Below, piece by piece: positions 24,191 through 64,000 of a stretch of DNA of 64,000 nt (the first letter of the stretch is position 1; each line of letters opens with the position of its first letter). A program made the translations under genes and the position numbers. Below the pieces are notes generated by a model. That model saw only the letters and a list, made by a program, of their open reading frames with translations. It did no database searches and was not told where the DNA came from. Source of the DNA: Marsupella aquatica (lineage: Eukaryota > Plantae > Marchantiophyta); NCBI GenBank assembly GCA_973895155.1, contig OZ316897.1:1390515-1454514 (forward strand), written 5' to 3'.

Positions 24191-24222
24191 TGAGTTTTGC
24201 ATCCGTTGTTTTCATCGACTGA

Positions 24223-28177: not shown

Positions 28178-31100
28178 TGTGACGCCGCCGGTACGGCGGT
28201 TAATGAGTGATTCAGTCTAACTGCGCTCGGCACGCGCGTTAGGTGGGTCTTAGGCCGCTATTATTAGCATAATGACAGTATTTAGGTAATCATTAGGAGT
28301 AGGACATCATTAGGCAATAAGGGGGACTTCAGGTTCGGGCTGGCGGCGGGTCGCTATTCGCACACCCGGGTTACGAGCGTGGAGGGGCCCCTCCCTCGGG
28401 TCCGTATAACGAACTTAAGGAAGCGGCCACTGACGCACGCTGACTCAGACCGGCGGAGTGGCCGGTACACCACAAGCGTGAGCGGTTCAACCTATGGGCG
28501 TCGAGGAGACGTCGGGGATCGACAAGCCCTCAAAGTATAAAAGGGGAGCCAACCCTTTGTAGTGCACCAGTCCATCAGTCCGCGCGCCAGCTTCGACCCC
28601 AGCTCTCTCGTTCTCTCTAGGTCGCCACTACTATCTCCTCTGAATGTCGCACACGATCCTCTCCAGCTCGGCCATTCGATTCTGGACGCAGTTCCTATCT
28701 ACCGGAAGGCACTTGGCCGATTCATTGAAACACGCCAACCCACGCCGATACGAGATCGAACGCGAATACGAGAGAGCCATCCGCCTAGCAGGACGACACC
28801 ACTACGTCCTTAACTTTGACTACCCGTCTCAGAGCGAGCTTTACCGACCAGCTGAGGTATCTGGGTACTTCTTCAACGGAGACAAATATATCGGGTTCTG
28901 GGAAGCATTGCTTCGGCTTCCGGACGAGGTCTTCAATATCCCGGGTACAATCGACCCTGCAATGACATCACTTCGACCACATCCCTGCCCAGGTTCGGGC
29001 GGTCATTAACGGCGAGTCCAGTACCAACCGTTCGACAAGGGCGTCCGCACTCGCTTCGGAGAACTTCTACCAGCACCTACAGAGCTTCATGGGAACTCGG
29101 CCATCAACCAACATGACCAACTCAGCCGGACCCGTACCCGTACCGGTACCCGTGCCCATGCAACCTCAGCTTCAGCTTCAGCCTCAGCCGCAGCCTAGCC
29201 AAACCCCCCCACCTATCACCCAGCCAGCACAGGTACGCTCCGTCATCAACGCTGTGGATCTTAGCGATGACGACGAGGCTACCCCACCCTTGACCAGGCG
29301 GCCCAGAGGAACAAGCGCTCGGGGGGCCGACACTATATCGTCCCCACCCCCTGCTCTGACCCCAGGAGCGGCCCCAGCAGACAACATGGTGACCGTGGCC
29401 GCCCCGGGCCCGTTACCAACCGCAGTGGCACTCCCCAGGCCCGATCGGGAGGATGGGGAAGTATCACCTTCCCCGAGTCAGTCACGGGGAAAGAAGAGGA
29501 AGGAATCCGCCAGTGCATCCGGGTTACCGTTGGCCACGGTAGCCGTAGCCAAGGTAACGATGCATCGCGTGGGGGAAAACGTTCACAGCAACATCCTCCA
29601 TCCCAAGCATGCGGTGTACCTGAAGACTCAGGGATTTGAGCACCTCGCCTCTCTCCCCTGGAACACTTGCAGGTACTACGGGGAGGACATGACAGAATTC
29701 GTCAAGAATTATGACGACGTACGTCAACAGACTCGGCTGCGGGGAAGGAATATGTCCCTCACAGAAGAACGGCTCAAGATGATCTTCGGGTTACCCGAAG
29801 GTGACCATCGAGTCGAATCACGGGCTCCCGGGGGCAAGGGGGCCAAGTACCAATCTTCAAGTTTTCCCTCAGAGGGGTCAGTAGACAACGGGTTCGTGAT
29901 GAGGACCTGCCTCATGCCCGAGATAGCTGAGCGGCTGGAGTTCCAGAGGTACGCTCTCCACATGATGGAACCCCGGGGGGAGATCTCCGCCGCCCAAGTC
30001 ATCCAGGTCGAGAACTATCGACCTAGGAAATGGGCGTCATACTTCGCTAAGAAATTCCATGAAGAGATGGAGCGGCGAAGGAAGACGCTGTACATTGGCG
30101 GGAAGGCGTATTTCGCTAGCCACATCGAAATCATTCTTGAGTGGTACGCCCGGTTTGATCGACGAACCCTTCCCCGCATCAACGTTACAAAGCTGGTCCC
30201 AGCTAGGTGGGTTTTTCCGGCATTGGAGAGACGGCCCCAACCCGAGGCCCGAAGTCCAGTGGACACACCAGCTTCACCCACCCCACCTCTACAAATAGCT
30301 GTAATCGTAACCGAGGAGGCGCCGGAGGGGTCGGTCGTCGCAACCGTTGATGCGACCCAACTAGCCGGGCTAAGTACAGAAGTTGGTACGGCAGAGGTCT
30401 TACCCGAACCCGGGTCTCCCAAGGACCCGCCGGTGGCAATTCCGGAGAACCGGACATCGCTGCAGGAGGACACTCCAGCCCCTTCCAACGTTATGTCCCC
30501 AGGGTTGGATGTCACTGCCCCGGCCCCTGCGCGTGTTGCTGTCTGCCCGTGCCCAAATCCGGACAGGCACAACTTGGACCACCCGGAACTCTTCGTACAG
30601 GGTACATTTCTGAACGGGCTTCTGGGAGATTTCTCTCATCAAATTGCCCGGGATACCGGGGAGTTCATGGCCCGGAAGGTAGCCTGTTTCTTCAATCAGG
30701 AGTTGGTTGCCGCCGTAAAGGCAGGTCGGGCCCAGTCGGAGGCCCTTCAGAGGATAGAGCGGTACCGGGTGGAGTCCGTGTACCTAAAGAACGAAGTGGC
30801 GGCTCAAGAGGCTGAGCTTCTGCAACTACGACCCAAGGTTGCAGCCGCCGATGAGTTGTTATCAAAGGCGTACGCTCTTACCGCCCTAGCCGAACAGGCC
30901 AAAGCTGGGAACGAGGCCGAGATTACACGACTCCGGAACCAGATTGACAGTTTGAAGAAACAAGCTATCACCTGGCAGAAAGACCTGGAGGAGGCCGAGG
31001 AGCGAGCCCAGCGGGACGCGACGGAGATAGCCACGCTGCAGGCCGAGATGGCGCGGCTCCAAACCGAGGCCGAGAAGCAGGACCAGCTGGCGAGTAAACT

Positions 31101-32187
31101 GACGAGCGACGCCCAGCAGCTGGAGGAGGCATGTCAGGAGGCAGCAGAGGAGACGGACGCGGCGAGGCGAGAGAACGAATCTCTGCTGGACCAGGTCCAG
31201 CTCCTCAAAGCGGACAATGACAGGCTTCGAAGGCAGCGGGATGGCCGTTCCCATTCAGGCGGCTCTGGCAAGCGTGCCAGGCATTAGCGGTGGAGTAGGA
31301 ATAGATTAGGATTAGGATTGGCTTAGTCAGGGTCTTGGGACAGGCACCTGCCTTAGGTACAGCAGCGCTGCCCTGCTGTCCAGCCTGCGTAGATTAGGAT
31401 CTTCTAATAAGACACAGCCGTTTTCCGGCCTGACTGTCAGCTTAGTTAGGACCTTGGTCAGCGAATCTTCGGCGGGAGGACACCCCGTTCCTCGGCTCTT
31501 AGTATTTAGTGCACCCCTCGGTAGAGGCAAGAGGGGGGTTTTTAGTTTCAGAGTCGGACATCCGCGGGACACGCGGGGAGTCCCGACCTCTGGGAATGAC
31601 AGAGTACCAAGGGGAGGGGGTAGGACTAAGCTCACCGGGCGAGTGCGGAGCCGGGCTCCGTTGTAGTGTGCACCCTTGGCCTTGAACCTGTGCATTCCAG
31701 GGCTGTCGTGTCAACTAAGTGTACGCATATGTTCCCTTTGTAGTAAAATCCTTTCCCATCATTTTTCCTTCGTGTAAATCGAGATTGTATGCATGTGTGC
31801 GCATATGTGTGTGGGTTTCTCGTATATGGGTGGCAGCGCCGGGCCGAACGCACTACTCGAGACGTGCACAGGGTGCAGCCTGCGGGTAAGTGGTTGCGAG
31901 CACGGGTTGAGGACCTGTATCATCGAATCCGGATCGAAGGCGGACAGCACGAAGGCTTAGAAGCCCTTAAGCCGGGGTCGATCCTGCTATCGACTAAGGT
32001 ACGTTCCGGCGGCGGAACACAAACCATACCTAGGAGGTGTCCGTATTTAGCAGTATGCGCACTTAGCGCTAGTTTACGAGAATAAGGTGCATTACGTGCT
32101 TCCCTTCCTGCCCGAACCCTCAGATTTACGAGGGATGTGCCCGTCTAAGCTGAAGTCTGAGTTAAGGCCGAAGCCTACGACGTGACA
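28178..32187 (+). mobile_element. Giant solo LTR, family A copy 1 (4010 bp), containing a large ORF
   Basis: TGTGACG...CGTGACA termini and 5-bp TSD GGAAC (28173-28177 / 32188-32192). Near-identical to 39975-43973. No gag/pol. Confidence 0.9.
28644..31287 (+). CDS. LTR-encoded protein, family A (~880 aa reconstructed): plant-transposon-protein-like domain, Pro-rich linker, coiled coil
   Basis: ORFs 28644-29009 and 29089-31287 are joined in copy A2; here a +1 frameshift occurs at ~28958. TATA-like GTATAAAAG lies at ~28535. Confidence 0.75.
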
Positions 32188-32299
32188 GGAACATTTTCTG
32201 AAGTCAGGGGAATCACCGTCGATTTGCGAGATTTATGACTTTGATACATTTACGGGTTGTCTATTAAAATCCATCTAATATAAAATAAAATAGTTATAT

Positions 32300-35870: not shown

Positions 35871-35885
35871 CCTTACCGGGCATAC

Positions 35886-38813
35886 TGTGATGCCTAGCTA
35901 GGAATCACTGGGCTAGTTTAAAGTGGAAAAGGGAAGAGTACCCTAGAAACACATTAGTATAGTTACAAAAATAAGGAAAATATAAACAATTAAGGGTGAC
36001 TATGGAACCCGAGCCGAGGCTGGAAGTAAGGACGCCAGGGGAGAGAACACAATTAGGGTTAGGGCACGCTAAGTGCCGGTGGCTAGGGGTCACGACTGAA
36101 AGACAGACGCCGAGGAGAAGAGGGGTAAGGACCGCTCGCGAGGAGTTGTGGCTCATTTGCAGGCACAAACTGGGCAGACGACTACGGGCGGCCAACTACT
36201 GTCAACTGCTTAGGCAGGTACTCAGGGTGGAAGTAGATACCAACTATCAACTCGAGAAGGGTATGAGCAACGTCAATCAAGCGGCACATTTTTGGGGATG
36301 CCTGTTCGAACGGGCAACTGGGTACATTGGGACTTACAAGGACGAAGAATCGGAGAGAGCAGCAGGAGAACGGCAGGAGCTCGCTCGATTGTGGGAGCTG
36401 CAGAAAGCTGCCTTCTTAGGAGAACTCATCAAGGCCGAATTCTTGTGGACTCCTACCGGTAACGAGCTAGACGACCTGCTGTTTTGTGAAAACAAAGTTG
36501 TCGGCATCCGCGAAGCCATCAAACGCTGCAACGACATACACTGGGAGTTGAAGGGTAGCACAGAGGGGTGGACAAAGGCAACCGTGCTAGGAGAGATGTG
36601 TGGGGAATTGGTGCTCAGCATCTTTGGGGAGGAGTTGGAGCAGGGACCCTTTTTCCAGAGGGAGATGTTGGAGAAACGCCAATTAGAAGAAGCGATGGCC
36701 TTGGAAAGAAGCAAGAAGGACGAGGTCATCCGTCGGCTTAGGGCAAGGGAAGCCAAAATCGAAGATCTGAGGGCGGCCAGGAAAGCCCAAGATGAGCTGC
36801 GGATTAAGCGGCATGAGCTAAATATCATGCAGGGCCAATTAGATACCGCACAGTCAGATAATCGGATTATCAAGAATAAACTGCCGCGGACCCAAGGAGA
36901 GTTGGCCGATGCGATCAAGGAGCGGGAGAAGTGGAAGCGAGAACTAAGGGATGTAGAGGAGGCCCACATAACAGCCAACAACCGGGCCATGGTAGAGACC
37001 CAGAGAAGGGAAAGGGCGTTGAAGGGGGAGCTCAAGGATATCCGCGGAGCCCTTGAGCAGAAGGAGGCCGAGTTAGGGAAATCCTATCAAGGGATTATTG
37101 CGTTGCAACAGGAGCTTGCGTCCCTGACGGCCAGCTTCAAGGCCGACCTACGGGAGAAAGACGACCAGCTCGACCAGACTTATGCCAAGATGAATAAAAT
37201 GGAGTCTGTGGTCGTAACGGAGCTCGACAAAGAACTAAGAGCAACCCAGGAGGAGAGGGCTACCTTGAAAAAGGAATTGAAGGAAGCCCATAGGGAGCTG
37301 GAGGAATCCCAGAAAGAACTGGAGGAGGCACGCAAGGACCTGGACGAGGTGCAGGAGGAGTTGGAGGAAAGCACGCGGAGGCTGGAGAACTTACAACGAT
37401 GAGCCGACAACCAAACGGAGCGGCTGAAGAAACAAGCCGCATTATTTAAGTGCTTGGCTTCATCAGGCCCAACTCCAATTGGGGCAACCAAGCTACCAGG
37501 AGTGGTACTGACCGAAGGACAAGCCGCGCCACTTGCACCAGTGCCGGAAGTAAGTGGGAAGGGGAAGGGACCAGCTGCCGAACCAGAGAAGAAGAAGAAG
37601 CAGAAAACTTCTGGGTCAAGGAGTAATGCGGCTCCACAGGCCGAGGTGACCGAGGAGGTAAACCCAGCACCGACCCCAGGCAGGGTCACGGCAGAGGATC
37701 CAACTACCCTAGAAGAAGGGGATGCCAAGGCCTAGGCTCAGGCCGAAGCCGTGGCTGATGCCAAAACCGATGTTGAGGCCGAAGCCGGGGGTGGACCCAG
37801 TCAGGCCGATGAAGAGCTGACTCGGTCAAGGGCAGGTAATCTGTCAGTAGACGGGCCAACGGCAGTGGCTGAGGAGGAAACTTTGGGGGCGTCCACTGAG
37901 GAACAGACACTGCTACCATGACGGTGGTGGGGGGCCGCTTCTTTCAAGGAGGGCGGACGTGGAGGGAGGAGGCGTGAGTGGGCAGGGCGGGCTCAGATCT
38001 CTAAGTTTAGGATTAGGATCAGGACCAAGAGGCGGCCCTGACACTTAGCTTAGTGGGATTGCGGTTCCACTGGTAAGAGCAACACTTGTACTTCTGCCTT
38101 GCTGTACATAGGTAGATTCAGTTAGGTAGATTAGGCTTACGCTACAAAGAATTAGGCAGATCCACTACCAGGATAAATACCTGGGCAGCGGGGAGCTCAG
38201 GGCCTCTTCCTTAGCAAGTTTTTAGTTGCACCAGCCGGGCTGGGATCAAATAGTAAGAGAAGCTCTCGGTTAGTCATACAATGACCCTTGTATATATTCA
38301 TGTTTCCTCATGCCTAAGAACTGAATAGAGTTGGCCTCACGGCTTAGTTTGCAGAGCTTGTGTATGAGATGTACTGTTTGTATGACAAGTGCATGGTATG
38401 ACTCAGTGAGAAGGAGTCATTTTGCTATTTGTGTGTTGCATTAACTTGTGTGAAGAGTGCCCACATCAAAGGAAAGTAAGCAAGGGAGTGAGAGTTGGAT
38501 GTGTCGAGCTGAGAGAGGTCTTAGCGGCTTAACCAAGCCTATTGGGGATCATTCCGGCGGCGGAATCCAAACATACCTAAACAGAAGGAGGGGAAGACAA
38601 GGGAAGGCCTAGATTAGGCCGGCTATGTATCTCATGACCCGATGAAGGATCTGTCCAGTATATGTGTGTAAAAGGTTAATAGTAGTAGAGGAAGAAGTTA
38701 GCAGCGTTCCATGCCGCTAAGCCGCAAAAACGGCCTCGCCAAGCGCAAAACCTGCGGGAATCGGCTTGTGCTGGGGGGTTTCTTGGGTTTAGGGAGCCAT
38801 GGGGCGCACCACA
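35886..38813 (+). repeat. 5' LTR of element B (2928 bp, internally deleted)
   Basis: TGTGATG...CACCACA. Near-identical to 60353 onward except that it lacks 61067-62809. Confidence 0.9.
36002..37921 (+). pseudogene. LTR-encoded ORF of family B, 5' LTR copy (in-frame deletion, premature stops)
   Basis: ORFs 35996-37402 and 37454-37735 share one frame. The stops at 37400 and 37733 are sense codons in the 3' LTR copy. Long coiled coil. Confidence 0.75.
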
Positions 38814-38817
38814 TTTT

Positions 38818-38835
38818 TGGTGCTAGATGGAGGGG
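38818..38835 (+). promoter_or_regulatory. Primer-binding site (tRNA identity not assigned)
   Basis: TGGTGCTAGATGGAGGGG begins 4 nt after the LTR ..CA end; TGG is complementary to tRNA CCA. Confidence 0.7.
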
Positions 38836-39974
38836 GCATTTCTTAAGCCGTGAGATATGAAGTTAGGAAAGAAGCGTAGGTAATGACTGAACCTACGCCA
38901 AGGGAGGAAAGAGCGATTCAACGGGAGAGAGCTCGTCTGCAGCAGCTCGTCAGGTGGCATGATACACAGCGACTGAGAGGGGCAGAAAGAGCTGGTAGCT
39001 CCGAAGCTGGGAGTGGCGTCGAAAAAGAGATACCAGAAGAAGAGTCGGTAGGAAGAAACGAGTACCCAACCGACATGGGGGAACCCGAGGCACAGCCAGA
39101 CGATAGGCCAGGGACCAGACTGAGCCAACGGTCGCGCATTCATTACAAGGCGTTTCATGGGAGAGGAGATGAGGATCCGGACGAATGGTTGGATGATTTC
39201 GAAGGAACCACTACAGCAAATGGAGAATCGGCCATCAAGATGCAGATTCTTCCCGGCCTGTTCAAGGGTGAGCCTAGGCCTTGGTACAGAGCATTGAATG
39301 TGGAAGATCAAGCCATCTGGAATATCTTCAAAACACTATTTGTTAAGGAGTTTCAACCCATTGGAACTTTAGAGTTAGCAGTGCTGAAGTTGGGACGACT
39401 TCGGTTCAAGGAGAACAGATCCTTCAGGAAGTTCTTGCAACGCTTTCAAAAGTTGGTAAGACGTACAAAGACCAATGCCTCTGAAGGTATGCAACTTCAA
39501 TGGTTAGTGAATGCTTTGCCACAGAAGATGAGTTTTGCAATAAGGAAGGAGAACCCAGAGACTTTAGCCGAGGCAATTAAAGATATTCAATTATACATTA
39601 ATGTAGATATCACAAGCCGGAAGAAACAGCTTAAGTCTGAGAGTTCCTCATCGGAGGAAGGATCACCCCATAAGAAAAAGGATAAGAAAAAGAAACACTC
39701 TAAGAAGTCAAGAAGTGATAACTCAAGCTCGGATAGTGGAGGTAGCAAGAGTGAGTCATCTTCTAGTTCTAAAGAAGACAAAACTAGGAAAAGGAAGGGC
39801 AGAAGAAGAGGGAAGACGAAAGTCAATCTGGAGGCTAAACCACCAGATAACATCGTAGCCCTTACCGAGCAGCTTAAAGCTATAATAGCAGAGGTGAAGC
39901 CGAAGAAGAAGGTAGTGCAGGAGGATAGCTCTGTATGGTGTGCCTTATGTTATAAAACCGGACACCATAAAGAT

Positions 39975-42900
39975 TGTGACGCCACCGGTACGGCGGTTAA
40001 TGAGTGATTCAGTCTAACTGCGCTCGGCACGCGCGTTAGGTGTGTCTTAGGCCACTATTATTAGCATAACGACAGTATTTAGGTAATCATTAGGGGTAGG
40101 ACATCATTAGGCAATAAGGGGGACTTCAGGTTTGGATTGGCGGCGGGTCGCTATTCGCACACCCGGGTTACGAGCGTGGAGGGGCCCCTCCCTCGGGTCC
40201 GTATAACGAACTTAAGGAAGCGGCCACTGACGCACGCTGACTCAGACCGGCGGAGTGGCCGGTACACCACAAGCGTGAGCGGTTCAGCCTATGGGCGTTG
40301 AGGAGATGTCGGGGGATCGACAAGCCCTCAAAGTATAAAAGGGAAGCCAACCCTTTGTAGTGCACCAGTCCATCAGTCCACGCGCCAGCTTCGACCCCAG
40401 CTCTCTCGTTCTCTCTAGGTCGCCACTACTATCTCCTCTGAATGTCGCACACGATCCTCTCCAGCTCGGCCATTCGATTCTGGACGCAGTTCCTATCTAC
40501 CGGAAGGCACTTGGCCGATTCATTGAAACACGCCAACCCGCGCCGATACGAAATCAAATGCGAGTACGAGAGAGCCATCCGCCTAGCAGGACGACACCAC
40601 TACATCCTTAACTTTGACTACCCGTCTCAGAGCAAGCTTTACCGACCAACAGAGGTATCTGGGTACTTCTTCAACGGAGACAAATATATCGGTTTCTGGG
40701 AAGCATTGCTTCGGCTTCCGGACAAGGTCTTCAATATCCCGGGTACAATCGACCTGCAGCGACATCACTTCGACCACATCCCTGCCCAGGTTCGGGCTGT
40801 CATTAACAGCGAGTCCAGTACCAACCGTTTGACAAGGGCGTCCGCACTCGCTTCGGAGAACTTCTACCAGCACCTGCAGAGCTTCATGGGAACTTGGCCA
40901 TCAACCAACATGACCAACTCAGCCGTGCCCGTACCCATACCCGTGCCCATGCAACCCCAGCCTCAACCTCAGGCTCAGCTTCAGCTTCAGCCTCAGCCGC
41001 AGCCTAGCCAAACCCCACCACCTATCGCCCAGCCAGCACAGGTACGCTCCGTCATCAACGCTGTGGATCTTAGCGATGACGACAAAGCTACCCCACCCTT
41101 GACCAAACGGCCCAGAAGAACAAGCGCTCGGGGGGCCGACACTATATCGTCCCCACCCCCTGCTCTGACCCCAGGAGCGGCCCCGGCAGACAACATGGTG
41201 ACCGTGGCCGCCCCGGGCCCGTTACTAACGACAGTGGCACTACCCAAGCCCGATCGGGAGGATGGGGAAGTGTCACCTTCCCCAAGCCAGTCACGGGGAA
41301 AGAAGAGGAAGGAATCCGCCACTGCATCCGGGTTACCGTTGGCCACGGTAGCCGTAGCCAAGGTGACGATGCACCGCATGGGGGAAAACGTTCACAACAA
41401 CATCCTCCATCCTAAGCATGCGGTGTACCTGAAGACTCAGGGATTTGAGCACCTCACCTCTCTCCCCTGGAACACTTGCAGGTACTACGGGGAGGACATG
41501 ACAGAATTCGTCAAGAATTATGACGACGTACGTCAACAGACTCGGCTGCGGGGAAGAAATATGTCCCTCACAGAAGAACGGCTCAAGATGATCTTCGGGT
41601 TACCCGAAGGTGACCATCGAGTCGAATCACGGGCTCCCGGGGGCAAGGGAGCCAAGTACCAATCTTCAAGTTTTCCCTTAGAGGGAGCAGTAGACAACGG
41701 GTTTGTGATAATGACCTGCCTCATGCCCGAGATAGCTGAGCGGCTGGAGTTCCAAAGGTACGCTCTCCACATGATGGAACCCCGGGGGGAGATCTCCGCC
41801 GCCCAGGTTATCCAGGTCGAGAACTATCGACCTAGGAAATGGGCGTCGTACTTCGCTAAGAAATTCCATGAAGAGATGGAGCGGCGAAGGAAGATGCTGT
41901 ACATTGGCGGGAAGGCGTATTTCGCTAGCCACATCAAAATCATTCTTGAATGGTACGCCCGGTTTGATCGACGAACCCTTCCCCGCATCAACGTTACAAA
42001 GCTGGTCCCAGCTAGGTGGGTTTTTCCGGCATTGGAGAGACGGCCCCAACCCAGCGGCCCGAAGTCCAGCGGACACGCCAGCTTCACCCACCCCACCTCC
42101 ACAAGTAGCTGTAGTCGTAACCAAGGAGGCGCCGGATGGGTCGGTTGTCGCAACCGTTGATGCGACCCAACTAGCCGGGCTAAGTACAGAAGTTGGTACG
42201 GCAGAGGTCTTACCCGAGCCCGGGTCTCCCAAGGACCCACCGGTGGCAATTCCGGAGAACCGAACATTGCTGCAGGAGAACACTCCAGCCCCTTCCAACG
42301 TTATGTCCCCAGGGCTGGACGTCACTGCCCCGGCCCCCGCGCGTGTTGATGTTTGCCCGTGCCCAAATCCGGACAGGCACAACTTGGACCACCCGGAACT
42401 CTTCGTGCAGGGTACGTTTCTGAACGGGCTTCTGGGAGATTTCTCTCATCAAATTGCCCGGGATACCGGGGAGTTCATGGCCCGGAAGGTAGCCTGTTTC
42501 TTCAATCAGGAGTTGGTTGCCGTAGTAAAGGCAGGTCGGGCCCAGTCGGAGGCCCTTCAGAGGATAGAGCGGTACCGGGTGGAGTCCGTGTACCTTAAGA
42601 ATGAAGTGGCGGCTCAAGAGGCTGAGCTTCTACAACTACGACCCAAGGTTGCAGCCGCCGATGAGTTGTTAGCAAAGGCGCACGCTCTTACCGCCCTAGC
42701 CGAACAGGCCAAAGCTGGGAACGAGGCCGAGATTACACGACTCCGGAACCAGATTGACAGTTTGAAAAATCAAGCTGTCACCTGGCAGAAAGACCTGGAG
42801 GAGGCCGAGGAACGAGCCCAGCGGGACACGGCGGAGATAGCCACGCTGTAGGCCGAGATGGCGCGGCTCCAAACCGAGGCCGAGAAGCAGGACCAGCTGG

Positions 42901-49524: not shown

Positions 49525-49584
49525 CCTCCCACTCAGCCTTGCTTAATTCATGGCACAGCACCGCTCCCCTTGGTGACAAGGAGT

Positions 49585-51678: not shown

Positions 51679-52822
51679 CGTCGCTCAACCGAAGAATGAA
51701 CCAACAATAAGAAAAACAGCTAGTGCCTTCCCGAGCTTACCTGTTTCAGTCGTAATAAATTTCCACCTTCACTCCATCTCAATTCTGATCTTTTGGAACG
51801 ACAGCAACGCCCAAAAGGTATACTCCTCCGTGGTCCCAGTCCTCCCGCGTCCACAAACAAGTACGCCCTCCTTTCCTCCGTTGAGTTAGACGGCCCTCAC
51901 TTTAGCTAGCCAGTTCACTTCTTTGATTAGGCTCCCGGCTCCGTCTTCCGGCCACAATCCACCACTCGCCCCTTCCATTTGCCGCCGCCAAGCAAAATAG
52001 GACAAGGCCACTACCATTCCACTAATTCAGTCGAATTCCTTCCGCAGCTCGCCTCCAGTCCCAAATACGTAAATGCCAATCCCCTCCATACAGACAATCT
52101 TACTTTCGGTTGGTGGCAGTCACGATGTACTTCGGTTGGTGGCAGTCACGATGTACTCGATCTGCTAGCTTTCCCAGATCAAACAATTGGCCTCCCCTCT
52201 ATTCTCAGTTAACGATTTCTCTCACCCAAATCTCAACGGCTTCCCCCGACAATAGAGAGGAAGAAAAGCAAACTCTTCCGCCAGCATGCACAACCTCTCT
52301 CTTCCCACCCTGATTTTGTCGCGCACTGTAGCCACATTCCCCGACCAGCTTTAGACTAAAGTTTACGACTTTTCCACAGCGCTCTGCTTCAAATGTGCAA
52401 TGTAGCACACCAGCCCAACCCGCTCAGCTTCCCCTCTGATGAATAACAATTTAGTATACTCCTAGCCTGCACACGAAGAAGAGGAAAAATCCTCCCGCAA
52501 GCCATCCACTTCCGTGCCCACTCCCTCCCGTGTCCGGTGACACAAGGTCCAACGCCCTTCTACCGCGCACAAACCTCGCACAAACCACCCGAAAACCTAA
52601 TAAAACTCACTAGCCGTCCCAAGCAATGCGATGACGATCGCAAGCAAGATTAGATTCATTCGCAGGAGGTGTCTCTCGTGTTCCAAATTCTTCCCCCTCG
52701 GGAAGCATAGCCCACACTCGATCCAAGCCTGGGAGAATCCAAGCTCCCAAGAGCAAGCACAAGTCAAAGCCACCTTTGCACCCTCGAAGTTCCTCAGTTC
52801 AAATTCAGGAGGTATCTTTTTT

Positions 52823-55067
52823 AGCATTAACTATGTAGTAATGAAGCCGGTAAATCCTACGTCATTCCGACTGTTGATTGGTAGGCCATGGCTATACCTA
52901 GCCAAGGTAATAGAGGATTGGGGTAAGAAGGAGTTCACTTTTGGGACCCCTTCTATCACGGTATCCTGGGATACCAAGGATGACCGCCGAAGAAGCATCA
53001 GGGAGGTAGACGGGTACGACAGTGGACTGGAATCAGCCGATGAGGTACGATGGTAGAATGCCTCGCTGACCAAACCGAAGAAAGTGTCTTTGGACCAGAG
53101 GTATCCCCCAGCGGACTATGGCAAGAACCTATGGAAGGTGACTTGGAGGATTGTGACGATGAAGCTAAGGACTGCTTTGCCATAGAGTCCACCTTTTTAG
53201 CTTCAATTCCGGAGGAAGCACAAGAGGTAAGCCAGTTGGAAACAACTAGGTGGGGAGCTATACCCGAGACGGTGGATTTTCCTCAGGCGTTGTGGCAGAG
53301 CCGACAAGATCCACAACGCCATCTATCATCGGCAAGGAGTTAAAAACCAAGGGATTGGCATACAAGCCGATTACAATGGCAGAACAAATCGAGGCCCTAG
53401 TAGAAGCCGGGAGAGCACAGCGGCCTGACCCTCAAGAGGAAGAGACGGATGAAATGCATAGACACAATCCCGAGCCGAGGCAGGAAGAAAAGCCGACTAC
53501 CAATTCAAAACCAGATAGACCGGCAAGGGGACAATCTGGGGACACCAAGGAAGAAACCGACTCGGCTAGTACTGCCGAGATTCCAGTCTATGGAGGTATG
53601 AGACTGGAGAGGTTGGAGGCCGGGTTGGACCCAAATTTGAAGAAGCAGATTAATATGATCCAAGCACGGCAATACCGGAAGCTCAACTTAGGAGAAGGAA
53701 GGGAACTGAACTTGGGGCGGGACCTAGCACCTGAGCTGGAGAAAGAGATCAGTGAATTACTAATTGAATTTCAAGATGTGTTCGCATGGAGTCATCAAGA
53801 TCTGAAAGGAGTAGACCCAAAACTGGGAGAACACCAAATTGATCTCATGTTAGGAGCCAAATCATTTCGACAACCGATTCGAAGGATGAACCCTAAGTAT
53901 TCCCTGATGGTCAAAACAGAAATTGACAAACTAGTGGAAGCCGGATTCATCACTCCAGTCCTGCATTCAGACTGGGTGTCTCCAATTGTGATAGTTCCCA
54001 AGAAAACTGGACCCGATGGTAAACCCAAGATCCGGCTTTGTCAGGATTACAGGAAGCTGAATGAAGCAACGTTAAAAGACCATTTTCCTTTACCCTTTAC
54101 TGATATGGTACTAGACATGGTAGCCAGTCATGATCTATATTCATTCATGGATATGGGTACTCTGGTTATAACCAAATCAGGATTAGGCAGGAGGACCAAA
54201 TCAAGACAGCCTTCATCACGGAATGGGGGATCTATGTCTTCAATCATATGCCGTTTGGACTCTGTAACGCACCAGCTATGTTTCAACGATTGATGGTGAA
54301 CATTTTCCATGATTACTTGAGAAAGTTCATGCAAATCTTCATTGATGACTTTGCAATATTCGGGAAGGCATCGAAACATGCTAAATATCTAAGGAAGACC
54401 TTCATGAGATGCAGAGAGGTAGGTCTCAAGTTACACCCCGATAAATGTTTCTTTGGAGTAACAGAGGGGGTACTACTAGGTCACAAGGTATCAAAGAAAG
54501 GCATTGAAATTGAAAAAGGTAAGCTAGCAGTATGGCTAGATATCATGCAACCTAAGAACATAAAAGATGTAAGATCCTTCTTGGGGTGCATTGGTTATTA
54601 TCGCCGCTTCATCAAGGATTTTGCCAAGCTAGCTTTACCATTAACCAACATGCTCAAGGCAGGTGCAGACTTCGAACCCACACCAGAACGAGTAACGGCA
54701 GTGGTGGAATTGAAGCAGATGTTAGTAGAGGCCCCAGTCATGATAGCACCAGACTGGAACAAGGATTTTCATGTCTTTGTAGATGTCTCAGGCTTCTGTA
54801 TCGGCTCAGTACTAAGTCAGTTGGATGAGAAAGGGAGGGACCATCCCATATACTTTGCAAGCTGTCAGCTTGCCGATGCAGAACGGAACTACTCCACCAC
54901 AGAAAGAGAAGCATTAGGAGTCATTTATTCATGTCAAAAGTTTAGGCATTATTTGCTAGGGTACAAGGTAATCTTTCATACCGATCATGAAAGTTTGAAG
55001 TACCTAGTAAATAAGCCGGACCTTACAGGCAGGGTAGCAAGATGGATTTTGCTATTACAGGAGTTTG
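52823..55067 (+). pseudogene. pol: pol of element B: end of protease, RT and RNase H (frameshifted)
   Basis: LLIGRPWL; WVSPIVIVPKK..RLCQDYRKLN; MPFGLCNAPA; FIDD; DVSGFCIG..NYSTTERE..TDHESL. A 2-nt insertion at ~54152 breaks FMD-GYSGYNQI. Confidence 0.93.
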
Positions 55068-58000
55068 TGTGACATGGGTAACGTGTCACTTGACCAAACC
55101 CAGGTCGTAGATTAGGACTTATACGGTCATTAGGACCGTAGCCATAGCGTAGAATAGCACGTATAGCCGTCAAGTTGCCATTATGATTAGATTAGGAGTA
55201 GGTTAAGATAACTGAATAATTACGAGTTCAGGAAAGGGATTATTATGCACGACCGAGGTACGGTGGCGGCAGCGGAGTAAAAATCAGTTAGAAGAATCAC
55301 GCTTGGACCGAGGCGCCGACTTCAGCTCGTTATCAATGACCAAACGGCCTGACCTTCTCACGCTCGGGCTCATCCTGGCACCCCCATAAGAGAGGAGCCG
55401 ATGGCACTGCGGGCCATTCGCTCATATTTACCTTTTTGGAATTCGTGGACGCTGCCATCCGCTCGCCTTTTTTATTGAATCCAGTCGACCTTTACGAGGA
55501 GATTATCGAGGGAGAAGAGCGGAATGTGGCGAGATTTAGTCAGGATGAGCGAGGCCTCCGCGAAAAAGGACCAGTCAGGTGGGAACGCAGACGCAACGAA
55601 CCGGACTACGAGGTTAGTATGACCCTCACAGCCTTGGGATTTTGGACCTTGTTTGGCGAGGTAGGTGCTAAGTTCTCCGAGACTTACTGGTACTCTTGCC
55701 CCGAGAAAGCCGCTTACAAACGAAGGTACGCAAAGCTGGTAACCAAGGTAGCACTGGTTAATTGCAAAAGGACAGCCATCACCAGGGATTCTAGCTACAA
55801 CGAGCTGTGAGACTACATCACCGAACTATATCTCAACGAGGAAGGGCTTAGATCGGTAGCAGAGGCGATTCTTGAGGTTCCAGCTAAGTTCTTTAAGCTG
55901 AAGGGCAACCAGCGGCTTACTCAAGCGGAGTCCGACAAGATTCCGGGGTACCTAGACCAGCAGATCGCAGCCAAAAAGCGCCAAGAAGACATCAGCAGAC
56001 AACGGGAAGCGGCGCGTAATCTCACGTTTCTCGAGGAAAGCTCCAACGCCTTCAACTGGGATATGGCTACCCCAGTGCCTCAACCGATGACCACCGGAGT
56101 ACCGCCGAACCAGTCCCAAGTCCGTCCAGTAATCAACACGGAGTGTTTTTCGGGTTCTGAGCGAGCTAGTCTGCAACTCGAACAGCGTCCTCATAAGCGG
56201 CCAAGGACTACGACGGCCCCCGAGCCAACAACACGGGCCGACGCCGCACCTGCACCTGCCCCGGCAAACCCCCCGACCAACCAGACCCGACGGCCCCCGG
56301 ATAACTCGAAGTCCAACTTATTATAGGTAATCCGCGTCCCCGAGGTAGTCTGGATCGCGATCAAGAAACTTGAACATGCGGACTATCTCAAGGAGCATCA
56401 GTTGGAGCGGTTCACCCACTTGCTATGGAGGCCGTGCGCCGCCGGGCCGAAGGAGATTTGTGAGTTCATCTCCAATTTCGACACTGATGCGTCGACCACC
56501 AAGGTTTCGAGGCAGGCCTTATCACTCACGGAGCATCGGTTAACGCAAATTTTCTGCCTACCAACCGGGCCGGTGCCGGTGGAAATCCGAATTCGGGATA
56601 AGGAGTATACGCCGCGGCACTTCAAACCCGAGGGTAAGACGGACAACGGATACAAGCAGGGGGCGTGCACCAACTTAACCTGTATGGAGCGGCTTAACTT
56701 CATACGGACTACCCTACACATGATTGAGCCACGATCTGAGATTTCCCTCTACACGATCGTGCAGGTGGAACAGTACAAACGACAAAACTGGGCCCAATTC
56801 TTCTACCAAAGATTCTCGGGGGAGCTGAAGCGGGCTCAGGGTGGTATGGCTATTGGAGGGAAGACTTACTTGGGAAGTCATGTCGCCATTATCCTCGCCT
56901 GGTACAAGGCACGGCGGGAGGCCAGAGGAAAGAATATGGCCACCTCAGCCCCGGGTAATGTCACCCCCGCCCCAAAGGAGGCAACCCCGACTACGCGGAC
57001 TACCGTCCCTCGGGCAAACCCCGAGCCGGAAGCCCCGACTAATACTCCGCAACCGCCCCCTGTGGAAATTCCACCGCCTCCTTCTGTTGAGCCTCCGCTA
57101 CCTGCAGTACAACCACCCCCAATCCCTCCACCACCTAAAGAAACCTTCCCCTCCCCAGTGCTGACTACGGAGGAGCTCATTGCCCCTGCCGAGGAACCAC
57201 CGGTACCCGAGAGGATGGAGGACTACCAAGTAGCCCCGGGGACCATGGCCTACGACCTGGTCCAGAAGTTTAGCCAGACTATGTCTGGGGAGCTGGCGAC
57301 ATACATCGGACAACAAGTCTCGGCGTACTTCCAGCCAGCCTTCTTCATGTTAGAGCACCAACCACGGATCGTCAGCCGCTTGGAAGAAGAACTCATGGCG
57401 AAGGGGAATGAGATCGGGCGTCTCCAGATGATGGTAGAGCACCTCGAGGAGGAGGCAACGACCCACCGCGAGGATTTAGTCCGCACTGTCGAACAGAGGG
57501 ACGGACTAACCCAGGAGTTAAGCGGAGCGCAGGCCGAACTCAAGAAGCTGGACGACACCGTGCTTCAATTACGCTCAGAATCTTCGGCTTGGGTTACCAG
57601 CCTGACCGACCTCAACAAACAATTCCTGTAGGCAGCACAGCAGGTGGCTGGTCTCTCCGCCGAACGAGATAAATTGCTAGCGCAGGACCAGGTCCATCGC
57701 GACGCCATCGACCAGCTCAACTTGGAGGTGGCGCGGCTCCAGACTGAAGCCGATGAAGCTGCAAACGAGGCGGAGGAAGCAGTACGGGACAACAAGGCTT
57801 TGCAGGACCGCGTCACCCTGCTCGTCCTCCAGCAGGGAAAACCTGGGCCCACCTCTGATCAAGGCGGCTCGAGGTCTCGCCCCGACAAGGGGACCAGCCC
57901 TGGTCCAACCACTGCACACACGTAAGGGGTGGTTAGCGAAGGGTAGAAGCAGGCGCCGCGCGAGGCGGTTAAGTCAGCGGCATCTTTTGGTTAGGCGTAA

Positions 58001-58908
58001 CGATAGAATGACTGTCATTAGGCGCCGATTAGCGGCAGTAGGAAGAATTAGGGCCGGTCAGTTAGGATCAGCCAACGTAGGATGGAGTCCATCAACGGAC
58101 TAGAGTTTGTCAGTAGGCTTGGCCGCTGCCATTCCGGTTGGCACACTCATAGTCGACGGTCAACCGGTCAGTGCAGCGCGACCAGTAGTCAGCAGATAGT
58201 TAGTCAGTAGGTAGTACCCCGGAAGGTAGTATCCTCCGGTTCTCTTCCGCTATGGGTATTTAGGCTTCCCCTTCCACGATGGAAAGGGGGGAGAAGGCTT
58301 AGTTATCTCAGCAGAAGAAAGGCGAGGCACGAGGAGTCCCGGCCTGAGTAGGGTCAGAGCGCACCAAGGAGTGAGAGCCAGAGTCGAGCTTGCTGGGCAA
58401 GTGCGAGGCAGGGCCTCGTAGAGACTGGGCATCGACTGCCGTTGGGCCTGCTGACCCCCTTTGAAGTCGAGTCAACCATGTAAACTGATGCTTCGCTGAG
58501 TAAATGTAGTCTTTTTCCCCCTAATGTTTCTGAGAGTAACTGGTGTTGTGTGTATGCTTTGTCTGGGCAAAGGCGCCATTTTAAGGGACGTACCGGGTGT
58601 GGACTAATGGTAGGGATTGCCACTCATTGCATGTCACAAGGTCCTGTCACGTCGATGGCTTGAAAAGCCCCAAGTCGGGAGTTAGTCCGCGTCACTAACT
58701 GAGGGAATATTCCAGCGGTGGAAAATAAATATACCTATGTCAAGTACGAATTATGCGAGTGTTATACCAGTAAGTATATCGGCTTAGCCCGACTTAGGGC
58801 TATTGAAGGTCACTACACACCTCCTTGCCCGAACCCTCACCCCTACTGGTGGTCGAGGTCGCACCACGACACTAACCTGGATTTAAGGCCCAGGTTAGGG
58901 GTGCGACA
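55068..58908 (+). mobile_element. Giant solo LTR, family C (3841 bp), containing a homologous large ORF
   Basis: TGTGACA...GCGACA termini and TSD GTTTG (55063-55067 / 58909-58913). The host frame LLLQEF|DYELKIKPGK is restored on removal. Confidence 0.9.
55436..57925 (+). pseudogene. LTR-encoded protein, family C (in-frame stops at 55808, 56324 and 57629)
   Basis: ORFs 55436, 56063, 56402 and 57644 share one frame. LTEHRLTQIFCLP..DNGY..ERLNF..HMIEPRSEIS..IGGKTYLGSHVAIILAWY aligns with family A. Confidence 0.8.
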
Positions 58909-58913
58909 GTTTG

Positions 58914-60364
58914 ACTACGAGCTAAAAATCAAGCCGGGAAAGCTACACGCCAATGCCGACTTCTTTTCAAGGATCACAGGTGAACCAGCCACGGATTGCA
59001 TCGATGATCGATTCCCCGACGAGGAGCTATTTGTTGTGGAAATAACTGATACATGGTACCCGGAGATTTTGCAATTTCTCAGCACGTCCAGATTACAACC
59101 AGGGCTAACCCAAGAACAAGCCGCAGTCTTCCTGCGGAAGGTCAGACAGTATCAGTACATTAAGGGTGTGCTACACAGGTATGGAATCAGCGACACTATC
59201 CAAAGGTGTTTAGAAGAGGAAGAGATAAAACGAGTCTTACGGGCTATGCATGGAGAAGAGGCCGGAGGACATTTTTCTCTAGTAACCATGTCTAAAAAGA
59301 TATTAAATGCCGGTTACTGATGGCCCACCTTTCACAAGGATGTCTATCAGTTCATCAAACAATGTGATCCTTGTCAGCGAGCAGGAGGACCAAGGGCGTC
59401 TACAAGACATCCACTGCACCCTATTCTACCTCTGGCACCATTTGAGAAGTGGGGTATTGATTACATTGGACTACTGAAACCATTAACCCATCCTCAAAGA
59501 AACAAGTACATAATCCTGGCCATGGATTATGCAACTAGGTGGGTGGAGGCTAGGCCGACAACGAAGGATGATGCAATTACTACAGCTTGATTTATGTATG
59601 AGCAGATCTTCACCAGGTATGGAGCACCCCTAGAATTAGTTAGTGATAGAGGAACCCATTTTCTGAATGATATAATTAGTCGTTTAAATGAGCAGTATTT
59701 AGTTAGACATAGGCCTACCACTCCTTACCACCCAAAGGCAAATGGATTGACAGAACAAGCCAATGGGATTATAGGAAAGATATTGAACAAGACAGTAGCT
59801 CAAAACAAACTTGATTGGGATGATAAATTGTTTGCTGCCGTTTTTGCTTACAATTTAGCCTATAAATCCACTACCGGTCATACACCCTTTTTCTTAACCT
59901 TTGGACAGGAAGCTCTGGTACCCATGCAACTTGAGATACCAACATTTCAAGTTACCATTGAGGAAAGAGTCTCTGAGGAGGGAAGCCTGAAAGAACGAGA
60001 ATATAGATTAGAAGCTTTAGAGGAGGCAAGAATGATTTCAGCCGAGAGAGTAGAATATAGACAGAATATCATGAAGCAGCAGTATGATAAAAAGTTGAAA
60101 GTAGTTAGTATTCACACAGGAGACCTTGTATTACTTTATGACAGTAGGTATAGTAAGTTTCCAGGGAAGCTTTACACTCGCTGGCTAGGACCTTTCAGGG
60201 TATCAAAGAAGTTCCCCAATGGCTCGGTACAATTGGCCAACATTACCGGAGAGGTGTACCCAATTTGTATTCACTACGACCGCCTCAAGAAATACTATAT
60301 GGACGAAGATGAAGTTGTTTGCGAGGACGCTTCACAATTAAGTGGGGAGCTATGTGATGCCTAG
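58914..60364 (+). pseudogene. Integrase of element B (stops at 59318 and 59588)
   Basis: HHCC (MHGEEAGGH..CDPC), WGID, LVSDRGTHF, YHPKANGLTE and WLGPF motifs. Confidence 0.93.
60339..60349 (+). promoter_or_regulatory. Polypurine tract
   Basis: AAGTGGGGAG lies just before the TG start of the 3' LTR. Confidence 0.7.
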
Positions 60365-63300
60365 CCAGGAATCACTGGGCTAGTTTAAAGTGGAAAAGGG
60401 AAGAGTACCCTAGAAACACATTAGTATAGTTACAAAAATAAGGAAAATATAAACAATTAAGGGTGACTATGGAACCCGAGCCAAGGCCGGAAGTGAGGAC
60501 GCCAGGGGAGAGAACACAATTAGGGTTAGGGCACGCTAAGTGCCGGCGGCTAGGGGTCACGACCAAAAGACAAACGCCGAGGAGAAGAGGGGTAAGGACC
60601 GCTCGCGAGGAGTTGTGGCTCATTTGCAGGCACGAACTGGGCAGACGACTACGGGCGGCCAACTACTGTCAACTGCTTAGGCAGGTACTCAGGGTGGAAG
60701 CAGATACCAACTATCAACTCAAGAAGGGTATGAGCAACATCAATCAAGCGGCACATTTTTGGGGATGCCTGTTCGAATGGGCAACTGGGTACATTGGGAC
60801 TTACAAGGACAAAGAATCGGAGAGAGCAGCAAGAGAACGGCAGGAGCTCGCTCAATTGTGGGAGCTGCAGAAAGCTGCCTTCTTAGGAGGAGAACTCATC
60901 AAGGCCGAATTCTTGTGGACTCCTATCGGTAACGAGCTAGACGACCTGCTGTTTTGCAAAAACAGAGTCGTCGGCATCCGCAAAGCCATCAAACGCTGCA
61001 ACAACATACACTGGGAGTTGAAGGGTAGCACAGAGGGGTGGACAAAGGCAACCGTGCTAGGAGAGACATCCACGGCAGCCGAGATGAAGAGAAAGGGAAA
61101 CAACAACGAAGGGGCCACCCTGGCAAAAAGAACGAGGTCGGTGGCACCAAAGAAACCAGCCGAACAGCAGAGTAGGAGAGAGAGAGAAGCCAAGGAGGAG
61201 GAGGTTGACCCCATCAACGTCGTTCCAACGAGAGATGACACCTGGAAAGGATGGGCGGCGATCCTCCCCGAGGAGGTCCAATTATACTTTGCAAGGGAGG
61301 AGGATGCATGCTTTACGGCTATGCAGACTCGGAAATATCAGGGCTTCATGGCCGGATCCGGCTTGGAAGCCTTCGTAAGGTTACCGTGGCTGAAGCCGGA
61401 GGTACCGAATTCAGACTTCCTTGAATTCGTGGGATCATGGGAGTCCGAGACCAATTCCACATAGGTGTATGGGAAGGATTTCTATCTCACTCCCCAGGTG
61501 ATTGCATAAGTGTTTGGCTTGCCAATGGGCAATAAGACCAAGGTAGATACCAGGAAGACCTTGCCAGACACGGAGTTCAGGTCGTTTCCAGGGCCTTCAA
61601 CAAAGAATGGCTTCTTCCGTAACACCTGCACCAACCCGCATATAGGTGAGATGATCGATTTCTTGCGGGTGACCATGCATTGCAACTAGCCAAGACCAGA
61701 GATCGGCAAGGCACAGGTCTATCTGGCAGAGAGGCCAGACCCAAACCGGGACTACAACGGTTACCTCCTCACTCAACTAAAGAAGATCTTGAAGGAGGAA
61801 CAGCTGGTGATCGGCAAGGGAAGCATGTCCCGGCTTGGCTATCACATGCCGCTATTGTGTCGGTATGCCCAAAGTAAGACCTTTGCCCCGGTACTTCCTC
61901 TACAGGCAAGGGCACCCGAGGAGGTTCCGTAACAAAGGCCGGCAACAGAGAAACCCAACCCGCCCGACAGTCTTACAATCGAGCAGGTGTTTAGGCCAAG
62001 GACGGAGGACTTGCCGATGTAGCAACCAGGCATGCAGAACCTGCTGAAATTGCTGGAGAGAGAAAAGAGAACAGCAACGGCAACGGCAACAATACAAAAC
62101 ACTGCTCCAGAGGTTGGCCTAAACCGGCTTACAAAGGAAAACCCCTTTACTGGAGTCAAGGAGAGAAGGAGGCCGGAACATGAGCCGGGAGTCCGGATGT
62201 ATGTAGGAGCCTCTAGTCCCGAAGCCGAGGAGAAGCAGGCCGTAGCTCCCGGCCACGACAAGGAGAACAAGAGATCAACACGGGAGCCGGAGGAGGAACC
62301 AAGACCGATGAGAGGTGAAGCCGTGTTCACAACAAAACCAGGAGAACGGCGGGAGAAGCCGGTAGTCCAAACCGAGGAGGAGGTGGTGGACTACAGCAAT
62401 GATGACTCCGGCTACGGGTCGGATCATCATGTTCCAGGAGTAAGGACCTGTGGTCGCTTCATCCCCACGCTCCCAAGAGTAGTCCGAGGGGACCCCAACC
62501 AGCAGAGTAGCCCCGAGTCTCCCCCACCAGAGATTGCTCCCCCGAGCTTTGACGGCATAAAACAGACGGCACAGGAATTTCAAGAGCGACTTAGGGAGGA
62601 TGAGAAAGCGGCCCTAGCTAGGGAGAAGGATTTACCAGGAGGAGATTGGCCGGAGGACATCATGCGGCTTGCCGAAAAAAGAAGCAACCCTCTTGCCACC
62701 ATAGAAGAAATACGCAAGACAGCTTGGGAGCAGAGGCCGCGATGGATGATGCCGATGACTTCTACTTCCTCCACCTATGCTAAAGATAGAGCCATGGAGT
62801 ACGGGGAGATGTGTGGGGAATTGGCGCTCAGCATCTTTGGGGAGGAGTTGGAGCAGGGACCCTTTTTCCAGAGGGAGATGTTGGACAAACGCCAATTAGA
62901 AGAAGCGATGGCCTTGGAAAGAAGCAAGAAGGAGGAGGTCATCCGTCGGCTTAGGGCAAGGGAAGCCAAAATTGAAGATCTGAGGGCGGCCAGGAAAGCC
63001 CAAGATGAGCTGTGGATTAAGCGGCATGAGCTAAATATCATGCAGGGCCAGTTAGATACCGCACAGTCAGATAACCGGATTATCAAGAATAAACTGCCGC
63101 GGACCCAAGGAGAGTTGGCCGATGCGATCAAGGAGCGGGAGAAGTGGAAGCGAGAACTAAGGGATGTAGAGGAGGCCCACATAACAGCCAACAACCGGGC
63201 CATGGTAGAGACCCAGAGAAGGGAAAGGGCGTTGAAGGGGGAGCTCAAGGATATCCGCGGAGCCCTTGAGCAGAAGGAGGCCGAGTTAGGGAAATCCTAT

Positions 63301-64000
63301 CAAGGGATTATTGCGTTGCAACAGGAGCTTGCGTCCCTGACGGCCAGCTTCAAGGCCGACCTACGGGAGAAAGACGACCAGCTCGACCAGACTTATGCCA
63401 AGATGAATAAAATGGAGTCTGTGGTCGTAACGGAGCTCGACAAAGAACTAAGAGCAACCCAGGAGGAGAGGGCTACCTTGAAAAAGGAATTGAAGGAAGC
63501 CCACAGGGAGCTGGAGGAATCCCAGAAAGAACTGGAGGAGGCACGCAAGGACCTGGACGAGGTGCAGGAGGAGTTGGAGGAAAGCACACGGAGGCTGGAG
63601 AACTTACAACGACGAGCCAACAACCAAACGGAGCGACTGAAGAAACAAGCCGCATTATTTAAGTGCTTGGCTTCATCAGGCCCAACTCCAATTGGGGCAA
63701 CCAAGCTACCAGGAGTGGTACTGACCAAAGGACAAGCCGCGCCACTTGCACCAGTGCCGGAAGTAAGTGGGAAGGGGAAGGGACCAGCTGCCGAACCAGA
63801 GAAGAAGAAGAAGCGGAAAACTTATGGGTCAAGGAGTAATGCGGCTCCACAGGCCGAGGTGACCAAGGAGGTAAACCCAGCACCGACCCCAGGCAGGGTC
63901 ACGGCAGAGGATCCAACTACCCTAGAAGAAGGGGATGCCGAGGCCTTGGCTCAAGCCGAAGCCGTGGCTGATGCCAAAACCGATGTCGAGGCCAAAGCCG
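60353..64000 (+). repeat. 3' LTR of element B (incomplete in window; ~4.7 kb predicted)
   Basis: Starts TGTGATGCC as at 35886 and includes an extra 1743 bp. Confidence 0.9.
60469..64000 (+). pseudogene. LTR-encoded protein, family B, undeleted copy (~1200 aa reconstructed, several stops)
   Basis: GLEAFVRLPW..FLEFVGSW..GKDFYLTPQVIA*VFGLP..KNGFFRNTC..EMIDFLRVTMH..PRPEIGKAQV aligns with the family A/C domain. C-terminal coiled coil. Confidence 0.78.

What the first reader, a model, noticed from the sequence alone, without database searches (positions are those of the whole stretch)
28178..64000. Giant protein-coding LTRs in three gypsy families
Seen: element B's two LTRs (bounded by PBS and PPT) both contain a long ORF. 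Three 3.8-4.0 kb TG..CA units with 5-bp TSDs contain ORFs with the same domain (LPW..EF..LT...IFGLP..NG[FY]..C..E..F.R..[LM]H..PR.EI), then a Pro-rich linker and a coiled coil. Established: extra ORFs of plant Athila/Tat elements normally lie in the internal region, and LTR-encoded genes are known mainly from retroviruses (MMTV sag, nef overlap). Inference: a lineage in which an ~850-1200 aa accessory gene lives wholly within the LTR, is duplicated at each insertion and survives solo-LTR formation. Protein conservation across families with little DNA similarity implies selection.
Basis: partly seen in the sequence, partly recalled or inferred. Interest (0 to 1): 0.88.

Follow-up and report, generated by a model that had tools for sequence, protein, structure and literature searches.

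The report
Retrotransposon LTRs carrying a whole gene
Three plant retrotransposon families carry a large, conserved protein gene inside their 3.8-4.7 kb terminal repeats, and its core domain is predicted to fold like a known transposon anti-silencing protein, so each repeat likely encodes its own activator.

The parts
28178..32187 (+). Unit A1: likely solo LTR of family A, 4010 bp, inserted in a minus-strand LINE remnant; TSD GGAAC
   Evidence: empty-site joint 28172->32188 seen in contigs of 2 of 4 runs laid
28536..28542 (+). TATA-like box (LTR position +359), followed by a CT-rich leader; the first ATG after it opens the gene
   Evidence: promoter function inferred
28644..31287 (+). Accessory gene in A1, ~880 codons: N-terminal domain, Pro/Gln linker, central domain (29548-30160), Pro-rich linker, coiled coil; frame broken once near 28955
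31739..31830 (+). T-rich/TGTA cluster ~435 nt before the LTR end; same position in C (422) and B (441); candidate 3'-end processing region
   Evidence: function inferred
32004..32032 (+). Conserved LTR-end motif (short hairpin plus AAA..ATACCTA) shared by A1, A2 (43790), C (58710) and B's 5' LTR (38552), 184-262 nt from the 3' end
35886..38813 (+). Element B 5' LTR, 2928 bp; lacks the equivalent of 61067-62809 (1743 bp, in frame), which holds the central domain
38818..38835 (+). PBS of element B (starts TGG, 4 nt after the LTR end)
   Evidence: no long complement in the LTRs, so not self-priming; tRNA identity not tested
38883..45355 (+). B gag (capsid, zinc knuckle) and protease region, interrupted by A2
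   Evidence: Pfam PF03732 E 1.6e-08, PF00098 E 1.4e-09; protease assignment by eye
39975..43973 (+). Unit A2: likely solo LTR of family A inside B gag; gene from ATG 40442, frame broken near 42053 and by two stops; TSD AAGAT
45356..52806 (-). L1-type LINE inserted in B with a 16-bp target duplication; two open frames (699 and 1314 aa)
52823..60364 (+). B pol: RT, one RNase H, integrase; interrupted by C between RNase H and integrase; no second RNase H or chromodomain found
   Evidence: Pfam RVT_1 E 4.2e-18, RT_RNaseH E 1.2e-35, rve E 0.0022 (below cut-off)
55068..58908 (+). Unit C: likely solo LTR of family C, 3841 bp; TSD GTTTG
55619..57925 (+). Accessory gene in C, 768 codons in one frame with three in-frame stops
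60340..60352 (+). Polypurine tract of B directly before the 3' LTR
60353..64000 (+). Element B 3' LTR (cut by the window end; full length ~4674 bp estimated from the 5' LTR)
60730..64000 (+). Accessory gene in B's 3' LTR, ~1130 codons in one frame with five in-frame stops; central domain ~61280-61900; start codon chosen by alignment (an earlier ATG lies at 60469)

Best explanation
These are giant Ty3/gypsy LTRs that each contain a conserved ~770-1130-codon gene, whose product is likely a nuclear DNA-binding protein of the PMD/VANC fold that would help the element escape host silencing. Shown: the gene lies between B's LTR boundaries; it has evolved under purifying selection in family A; it is conserved across three families that share almost no DNA similarity. 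Inferred: A1, A2 and C are solo LTRs left by recombination between LTRs. Inferred: the gene is transcribed from the TATA-like site upstream and can end at the T-rich tract ~430 nt before the LTR end, so each LTR, solo copies included, would be a complete transcription unit. My split on placement is R 50%, U3 with its own promoter 35%, U5 15%. Predicted: the central domain binds DNA, the coiled coil oligomerises, and the target would be short motifs in the LTR's own non-coding flanks (TTAGG-rich clusters are the candidate), giving family-specific de-repression in trans.
Confidence: 0.5

Rival explanations
1. The gene is a real LTR-borne accessory gene, but the protein acts on RNA or particles: for example it suppresses polyadenylation in the 5' LTR, aids export of the unusually built genomic RNA, or scaffolds the particle through its coiled coil.
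For: A gene placed upstream of the PBS with a likely 3'-end signal after it creates a read-through problem that an accessory protein could solve. TTAGG clusters are strand-biased. A conserved hairpin motif sits near the LTR end.
Against: The only structural match is a DNA-bound protein. The hairpin regions do not fold better than shuffles (z -0.83 to 0.11).
Confidence: 0.25
2. The protein is a chromatin tether that steers integration (for example into other retroelements or centromeric chromatin) rather than an anti-silencing factor.
For: All three solo-like units here sit inside other retroelements. B has no chromodomain hit after integrase. The fold is predicted to bind DNA.
Against: Nesting is expected by chance in a repeat-rich region. 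No interaction with integrase was tested.
Confidence: 0.1
3. A and C are not solo LTRs of autonomous elements but separately mobile units (non-autonomous, or moved by an integrase-like transposase with TGT..ACA ends) that happen to share the gene with B's LTR.
For: All three copies in the window are single units with their own TSD. The loose-end rows shown for unit A gave no PBS- or PPT-like flank (24 rows shown, 865 not shown).
Against: They share with B's true LTR the gene, its orientation, ~0.9-1.0 kb of 3' non-coding sequence, the T-rich tract position and the end motif. They encode no transposase and have only 6-8 of 12 inverted terminal bases.
Confidence: 0.1
4. The frames are passive captured or decaying sequence, or B's repeats are independent insertions.
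For: Every copy in the window is broken. B's right-hand TSD lies outside the window.
Against: Purifying selection in A against a neutral B pair (Fisher P 0.047). PBS and PPT sit exactly at the repeat boundaries. Protein is conserved without DNA similarity. Intact relatives exist.
Confidence: 0.04

Closest known systems
PMD-plus-coiled-coil extra ORFs of Tat/Ogre Ty3/gypsy elements (PMC4408406 passages; PMD in 57% of Ogre elements, PMC6317226 passages; PMD-A clades, PMC5418596 passages)
   Same: Non-chromovirus gypsy host; an extra gene with a PMD-like fold followed by a coiled coil; in Tat lineage IV it is sense and 5' of gag.
   Different: Here the gene lies inside the LTR and is therefore duplicated; no Pfam PMD hit; an extra N-terminal domain; B has no additional RNase H; relatives named so far are liverwort, while PMC4408406 found no eORF in moss Tat-like elements and dates the first to gymnosperms.
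VANC21 / VANC anti-silencing proteins of VANDAL Mutator-like DNA transposons (PDB 9LNJ; PMC5735166 passages)
   Different: Retrotransposon rather than DNA transposon; 9-11% identity; no DUF1985/DUF287 Pfam hit; no tandem arrays; binding and demethylation untested; VANC described as dicot-specific (PMC13547354 passages).
MAIN/MAIL1/MAIL2 PMD-C host proteins (bioRxiv 2024.09.27.615353 passages)
   Same: Reported to share the VANC fold and to oppose Polycomb silencing at DNA motifs; PRC2 represses transposons in bryophytes (bioRxiv 2022.10.24.513474, abstract).
   Different: Host genes; not compared directly here (no sequence or structure was on hand).
Athila env-like and other additional ORFs of plant LTR retrotransposons (PMC7264820, first third read; Retrosat2 ORF0, PMC3485330 passages)
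   Same: Family-wide extra gene in sense orientation; LTRs over 3 kb are known (Retrosat2; up to about 5 kb in PMC6317226).
   Different: Those genes are described in the internal region or upstream of gag; env-like ones have transmembrane domains, absent here.
LTR-encoded genes of complex retroviruses: MMTV sag, HIV nef (recalled, not from a call)
   Same: A protein gene inside the LTR, copied to both ends.
   Different: Far larger here (about 60-70% of a 3.8-4.7 kb LTR), unrelated protein, plant retrotransposon.

Membership tests
Ty3/gypsy LTR retrotransposon (element B) | gag then RT-RNase H-integrase order | tested here: met
   integrase core hit below Pfam cut-off in a broken frame
Ty3/gypsy LTR retrotransposon (element B) | Direct TG..CA repeats with PBS after the first and PPT before the second | tested here: met
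Ty3/gypsy LTR retrotransposon (element B) | Matching TSD around the whole element | not testable with these tools
   3' end lies beyond the window; no genome held
Solo LTR (A1, A2, C) | Single TG..CA unit with its own 5-bp TSD, no PBS/PPT flank | tested here: met
   3 of 3
Solo LTR (A1, A2, C) | The same sequence forms both ends of a full-length element | tested here: inconclusive
   Contig loose ends for A uninformative; indirect support from features shared with B's LTR
Tat clade (incl. Ogre, Retand) | Additional (archaeal-type) RNase H | tested here: not met
Athila clade / non-chromovirus | RT/RH/INT phylogenetic placement | not tested
   No reference set on hand; Athila-like RT motifs are recalled only; no chromodomain hit
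PMD (PF10536) / DUF1985 (PF09331) / Transposase_32 (PF20167) / Athila ORF1 (PF03078) | Pfam profile match at the curated cut-off | tested here: not met
PMD/VANC structural superfamily | Same fold as the VANC21 DNA-binding region | tested here: inconclusive
VANC-type anti-silencing system | Target motifs in tandem arrays in non-coding regions | tested here: inconclusive
   Dispersed TTAGG clusters enriched; no tandem arrays; true target unknown
VANC-type anti-silencing system | Sequence-specific DNA binding and loss of silencing marks | not testable with these tools
   needs experiment
env-like ORF | Transmembrane segment; location between pol and PPT | tested here: not met
   Highest 19-residue hydropathy 0.85-1.26 in five proteins; gene is downstream of the PPT

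The most novel reading that the evidence does not exclude
A liverwort lineage of LTR retrotransposons whose LTR is a self-contained anti-silencing module: promoter, a VANC-like sequence-specific DNA-binding gene, poly(A) signal and the protein's own target sites, all duplicated at every insertion and left working in solo LTRs. It would be a VANC-like defence-evasion system in a retrotransposon and would place the PMD/VANC fold in gypsy elements well before angiosperms.
Probability: 0.3. Interest if true: 0.92.

Novelty: new variant of a known kind. Interest (0 to 1): 0.76.

Why it matters
Plant LTRs are treated as non-coding, and solo-LTR formation as the host's way of disarming an element. 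Here solo LTRs would keep a full gene that could act in trans on the whole family. The function of extra genes in Athila/Tat-type elements is a long-standing open question; a VANC-like fold plus candidate motifs in the same 4 kb makes it directly testable in a liverwort model. It bears on whether genic PMD proteins came from gypsy elements or the reverse, a question left open in PMC5418596. It also warns annotators: gene models such as the Calypogeia fissa 'unnamed protein products' may be LTR-derived (context not checked). If the gene lies in R or U5, reverse transcription needs a ~3.6 kb strong-stop DNA and gag must be reached past a 2.3-3.4 kb first cistron.

Tried and rejected
No genome is held for this window, so full-length A and C and B's far TSD could not be sought. 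Word-based protein searches were nearly blank (none; 4 hits); the full HMMER scan found the family. Two metagenome locus scans confirmed no locus, so no relative's DNA context was obtained. No RNA holder was listed among 10 runs; this is no evidence on expression. Contigs were laid on unit A1 only; the C/B region has no such data. The first fold from 3 sequences was unusable (pLDDT 47.9) and was not searched. Sequence searches of the PDB gave nothing below E 0.66. The viral structure library gave no credible match (best TM 0.22). The wide VIA-align search never ran, so a better structural match is not excluded. The bacterial promoter scan is irrelevant here. The end-motif hairpin and the LTR/PBS hairpin are not more stable than shuffles. 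Self-priming rejected: longest PBS complement in the LTRs is 6 nt. Splicing rejected as the cause of B's 5' LTR deletion: ends are not GT..AG and show microhomology. Plain Nei-Gojobori ratios (0.28-0.34) overstate selection under the strong transition bias and were replaced by the spectrum-matched test. Alignment A4 used 39 of the 43 hits plus P0045 and P0053; P0003, P0021, P0026 and P0036 were left out as short or redundant. One search used a C end 20 bp too far; corrected. The VANC21 structure paper (Tanaka et al. 2026, cited in PMC13547354) is not held.

Full report
Anatomy. Self-comparison of the window gives two long repeat pairs in the finding's range: 28178-32187 with 39975-43973 (95.3%), and 35886-37787 with two blocks of 60353-64000 (96.4% and 98.2%). 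The second pair encloses a TGG-starting PBS, gag, RT, one RNase H, integrase and a purine tract: element B. Three later insertions interrupt it: A2 in gag, an L1-type LINE with a 16-bp duplication, and C between RNase H and integrase. A1 sits outside B in a LINE remnant. A1, A2 and C each run TG..CA with an exact 5-bp TSD. B's 3' LTR is cut by the window and no genome is held.

The gene. Each unit carries one long frame: ~880 codons in A, 768 in C and ~1130 in B, about 60-70% of the LTR. C and B's 3' LTR are broken only by in-frame stops (3 and 5). A1 and A2 are each broken by a different single-base frameshift, and their other indels inside the main frame are 6 and 18 bp apart from a 19-bp loss at A2's end. 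B's 5' LTR lacks 1743 bp in frame, including the central domain. Sensitive blastn finds only a 35-bp match between A and C and a 29-bp match between A and B, yet the A and C central domains are 40% identical.

Relatives. A scan of 1.84 billion representatives found 43 relatives at E<=0.001. Of 20 clusters looked up, 9 are Calypogeia fissa 'unnamed protein product', 9 are unnamed Logan records and 2 are 'hypothetical protein'; the host is therefore likely a liverwort or close non-seed plant (inference). P0045 (906 aa) and P0052 (787 aa) are uninterrupted, with the same layout; P0045 matches A's N-terminal, central and coiled-coil parts and B's central domain (E 4.6e-13). Profiles built only from non-window relatives hit the central domain in A1, A2, C and B's 3' LTR, and the N-terminal domain in A1, A2 and C but not significantly in B. 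The DNA context of these relatives is unknown.

Selection, with an internal control. Each observed change was redistributed to random sites of the same base and CpG class. A1 vs A2: 50 synonymous and 49 non-synonymous, 31.1 synonymous expected, 0 of 5000 simulations as high, adjusted omega 0.45 (central domain 0.35, P 0.01; N-domain and coiled coil alone not significant). B's two LTRs: 10 and 23, 10.1 expected, omega 1.01. Independent insertions thus record selection during transposition, while B's pair records only decay after one insertion, as sister LTRs should. This rests on one pair each.

Are A and C LTRs? They share with B's LTR the gene and its orientation, a 0.9-1.0 kb 3' non-coding part, a T-rich TGTA cluster 422-441 nt from the end, and a motif 184-262 nt from the end found at these four places only in the window (0.27 expected by chance; pattern chosen after the fact). 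Contigs of four runs cover unit A1 from end to end in three runs (26 of 30 bins in the fourth); in two runs the summed depth is about a thousand times that of the empty-site joint, and unrelated flanks abut 28178. Depth is not a copy number, but the gene is a regular part of an abundant family. No PBS-bearing flank was seen in the rows shown.

Likely working. In A a TATA-like box at +359 is followed by a CT-rich leader, and the gene's ATG is the first one after it; no canonical TATAWA follows the gene in A or C, though B has a TATATA there. With the T-rich tract after the stop, each LTR looks like a complete transcription unit (inferred). TTAGG is the top 5-mer in the non-coding parts of A and B and second in C: 30 observed against about 7.8 expected, reverse complement 3, and none in the A and C frames. 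I commit to a VANC-like activator or anti-silencing factor acting on its own LTR (0.5); RNA-level or tethering roles remain. Against a strict VANC analogy: no tandem arrays and the same motif in all three families.

Known context. Papers seen as passages: PMC6317226 (also section 9), PMC4408406, PMC5418596, PMC5735166, PMC13547354, PMC3485330, PMC11963269, PMC11728184, PMC10508981, PMC13468544, PMC12885004, bioRxiv 2024.09.27.615353; abstract and outline: bioRxiv 2022.10.24.513474; first third of PMC7264820. They describe extra ORFs in the internal region, PMD-plus-coiled-coil ORFs in Tat lineages, and structural likeness of VANC and MAIN. Ten full-text searches listed no paper that, by title, abstract start or passages read, reports a full gene inside a plant LTR. 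[quoted passage not shown] Two earlier scan notes report LTR-borne frames in fungal gypsy elements (unchecked).

Verdict. A real feature: LTR location is shown for B and inferred for A and C; selection is shown for A; the fold is probable; the function is a hypothesis. New variant of a known kind, interest 0.76.

Noticed in passing
window 13848-25530: Inverted repeats (13848-14594 with 25147-25530, 67-73%) enclose minus-strand frames with a SWIM-like Cys/His motif (by eye) and plus-strand frames, one hitting Pfam N6_N4_Mtase (22739-23368, E 1.3e-08). Looks like a ~11.7 kb DNA transposon carrying a prokaryote-type DNA methylase-like gene.
   Followed up: partly
window 45356-52806 (-): L1-type LINE with both frames open (699 aa DUF4283/zinc knuckle; 1314 aa endonuclease-RT-zf-RVT) and a 16-bp target duplication; likely a young insertion.
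   Followed up: partly
window 32004, 38552, 43790, 58710: The tail of the conserved LTR-end motif (ATACCTA) reads as a splice-donor-like AG/GTAT on the opposite strand and could pair with the TTAGG repeats; role unexplained.
   Followed up: no
window 28178-32187, 39975-43973, 55068-58908: CpG observed/expected is 0.86-0.90 in A and C against 0.53-0.68 in B, the LINE and the left part of the window; fits low methylation history or simply high GC and youth.
   Followed up: partly
window 31196 and 31375: Contigs join these positions back to the LTR start (28177-28181), suggesting family A inserts into its own LTR near the end of the gene.
   Followed up: no
window 35403-35861 and 32815-32993: Tandem arrays (105/210-bp and 22-bp units) in the flank left of element B; outside the LTRs.
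   Followed up: no
window 38802-38823: The last bases of B's 5' LTR can pair with the start of the PBS; the PBS resembles a tRNA-Asn type (recalled, not tested).
   Followed up: partly
window 1381-3667: Inverted, degenerate 18-19-bp and 35-bp tandem arrays at 1.4-2.4 kb and 3.3-3.7 kb, possibly the ends of a foldback-type element.
   Followed up: no
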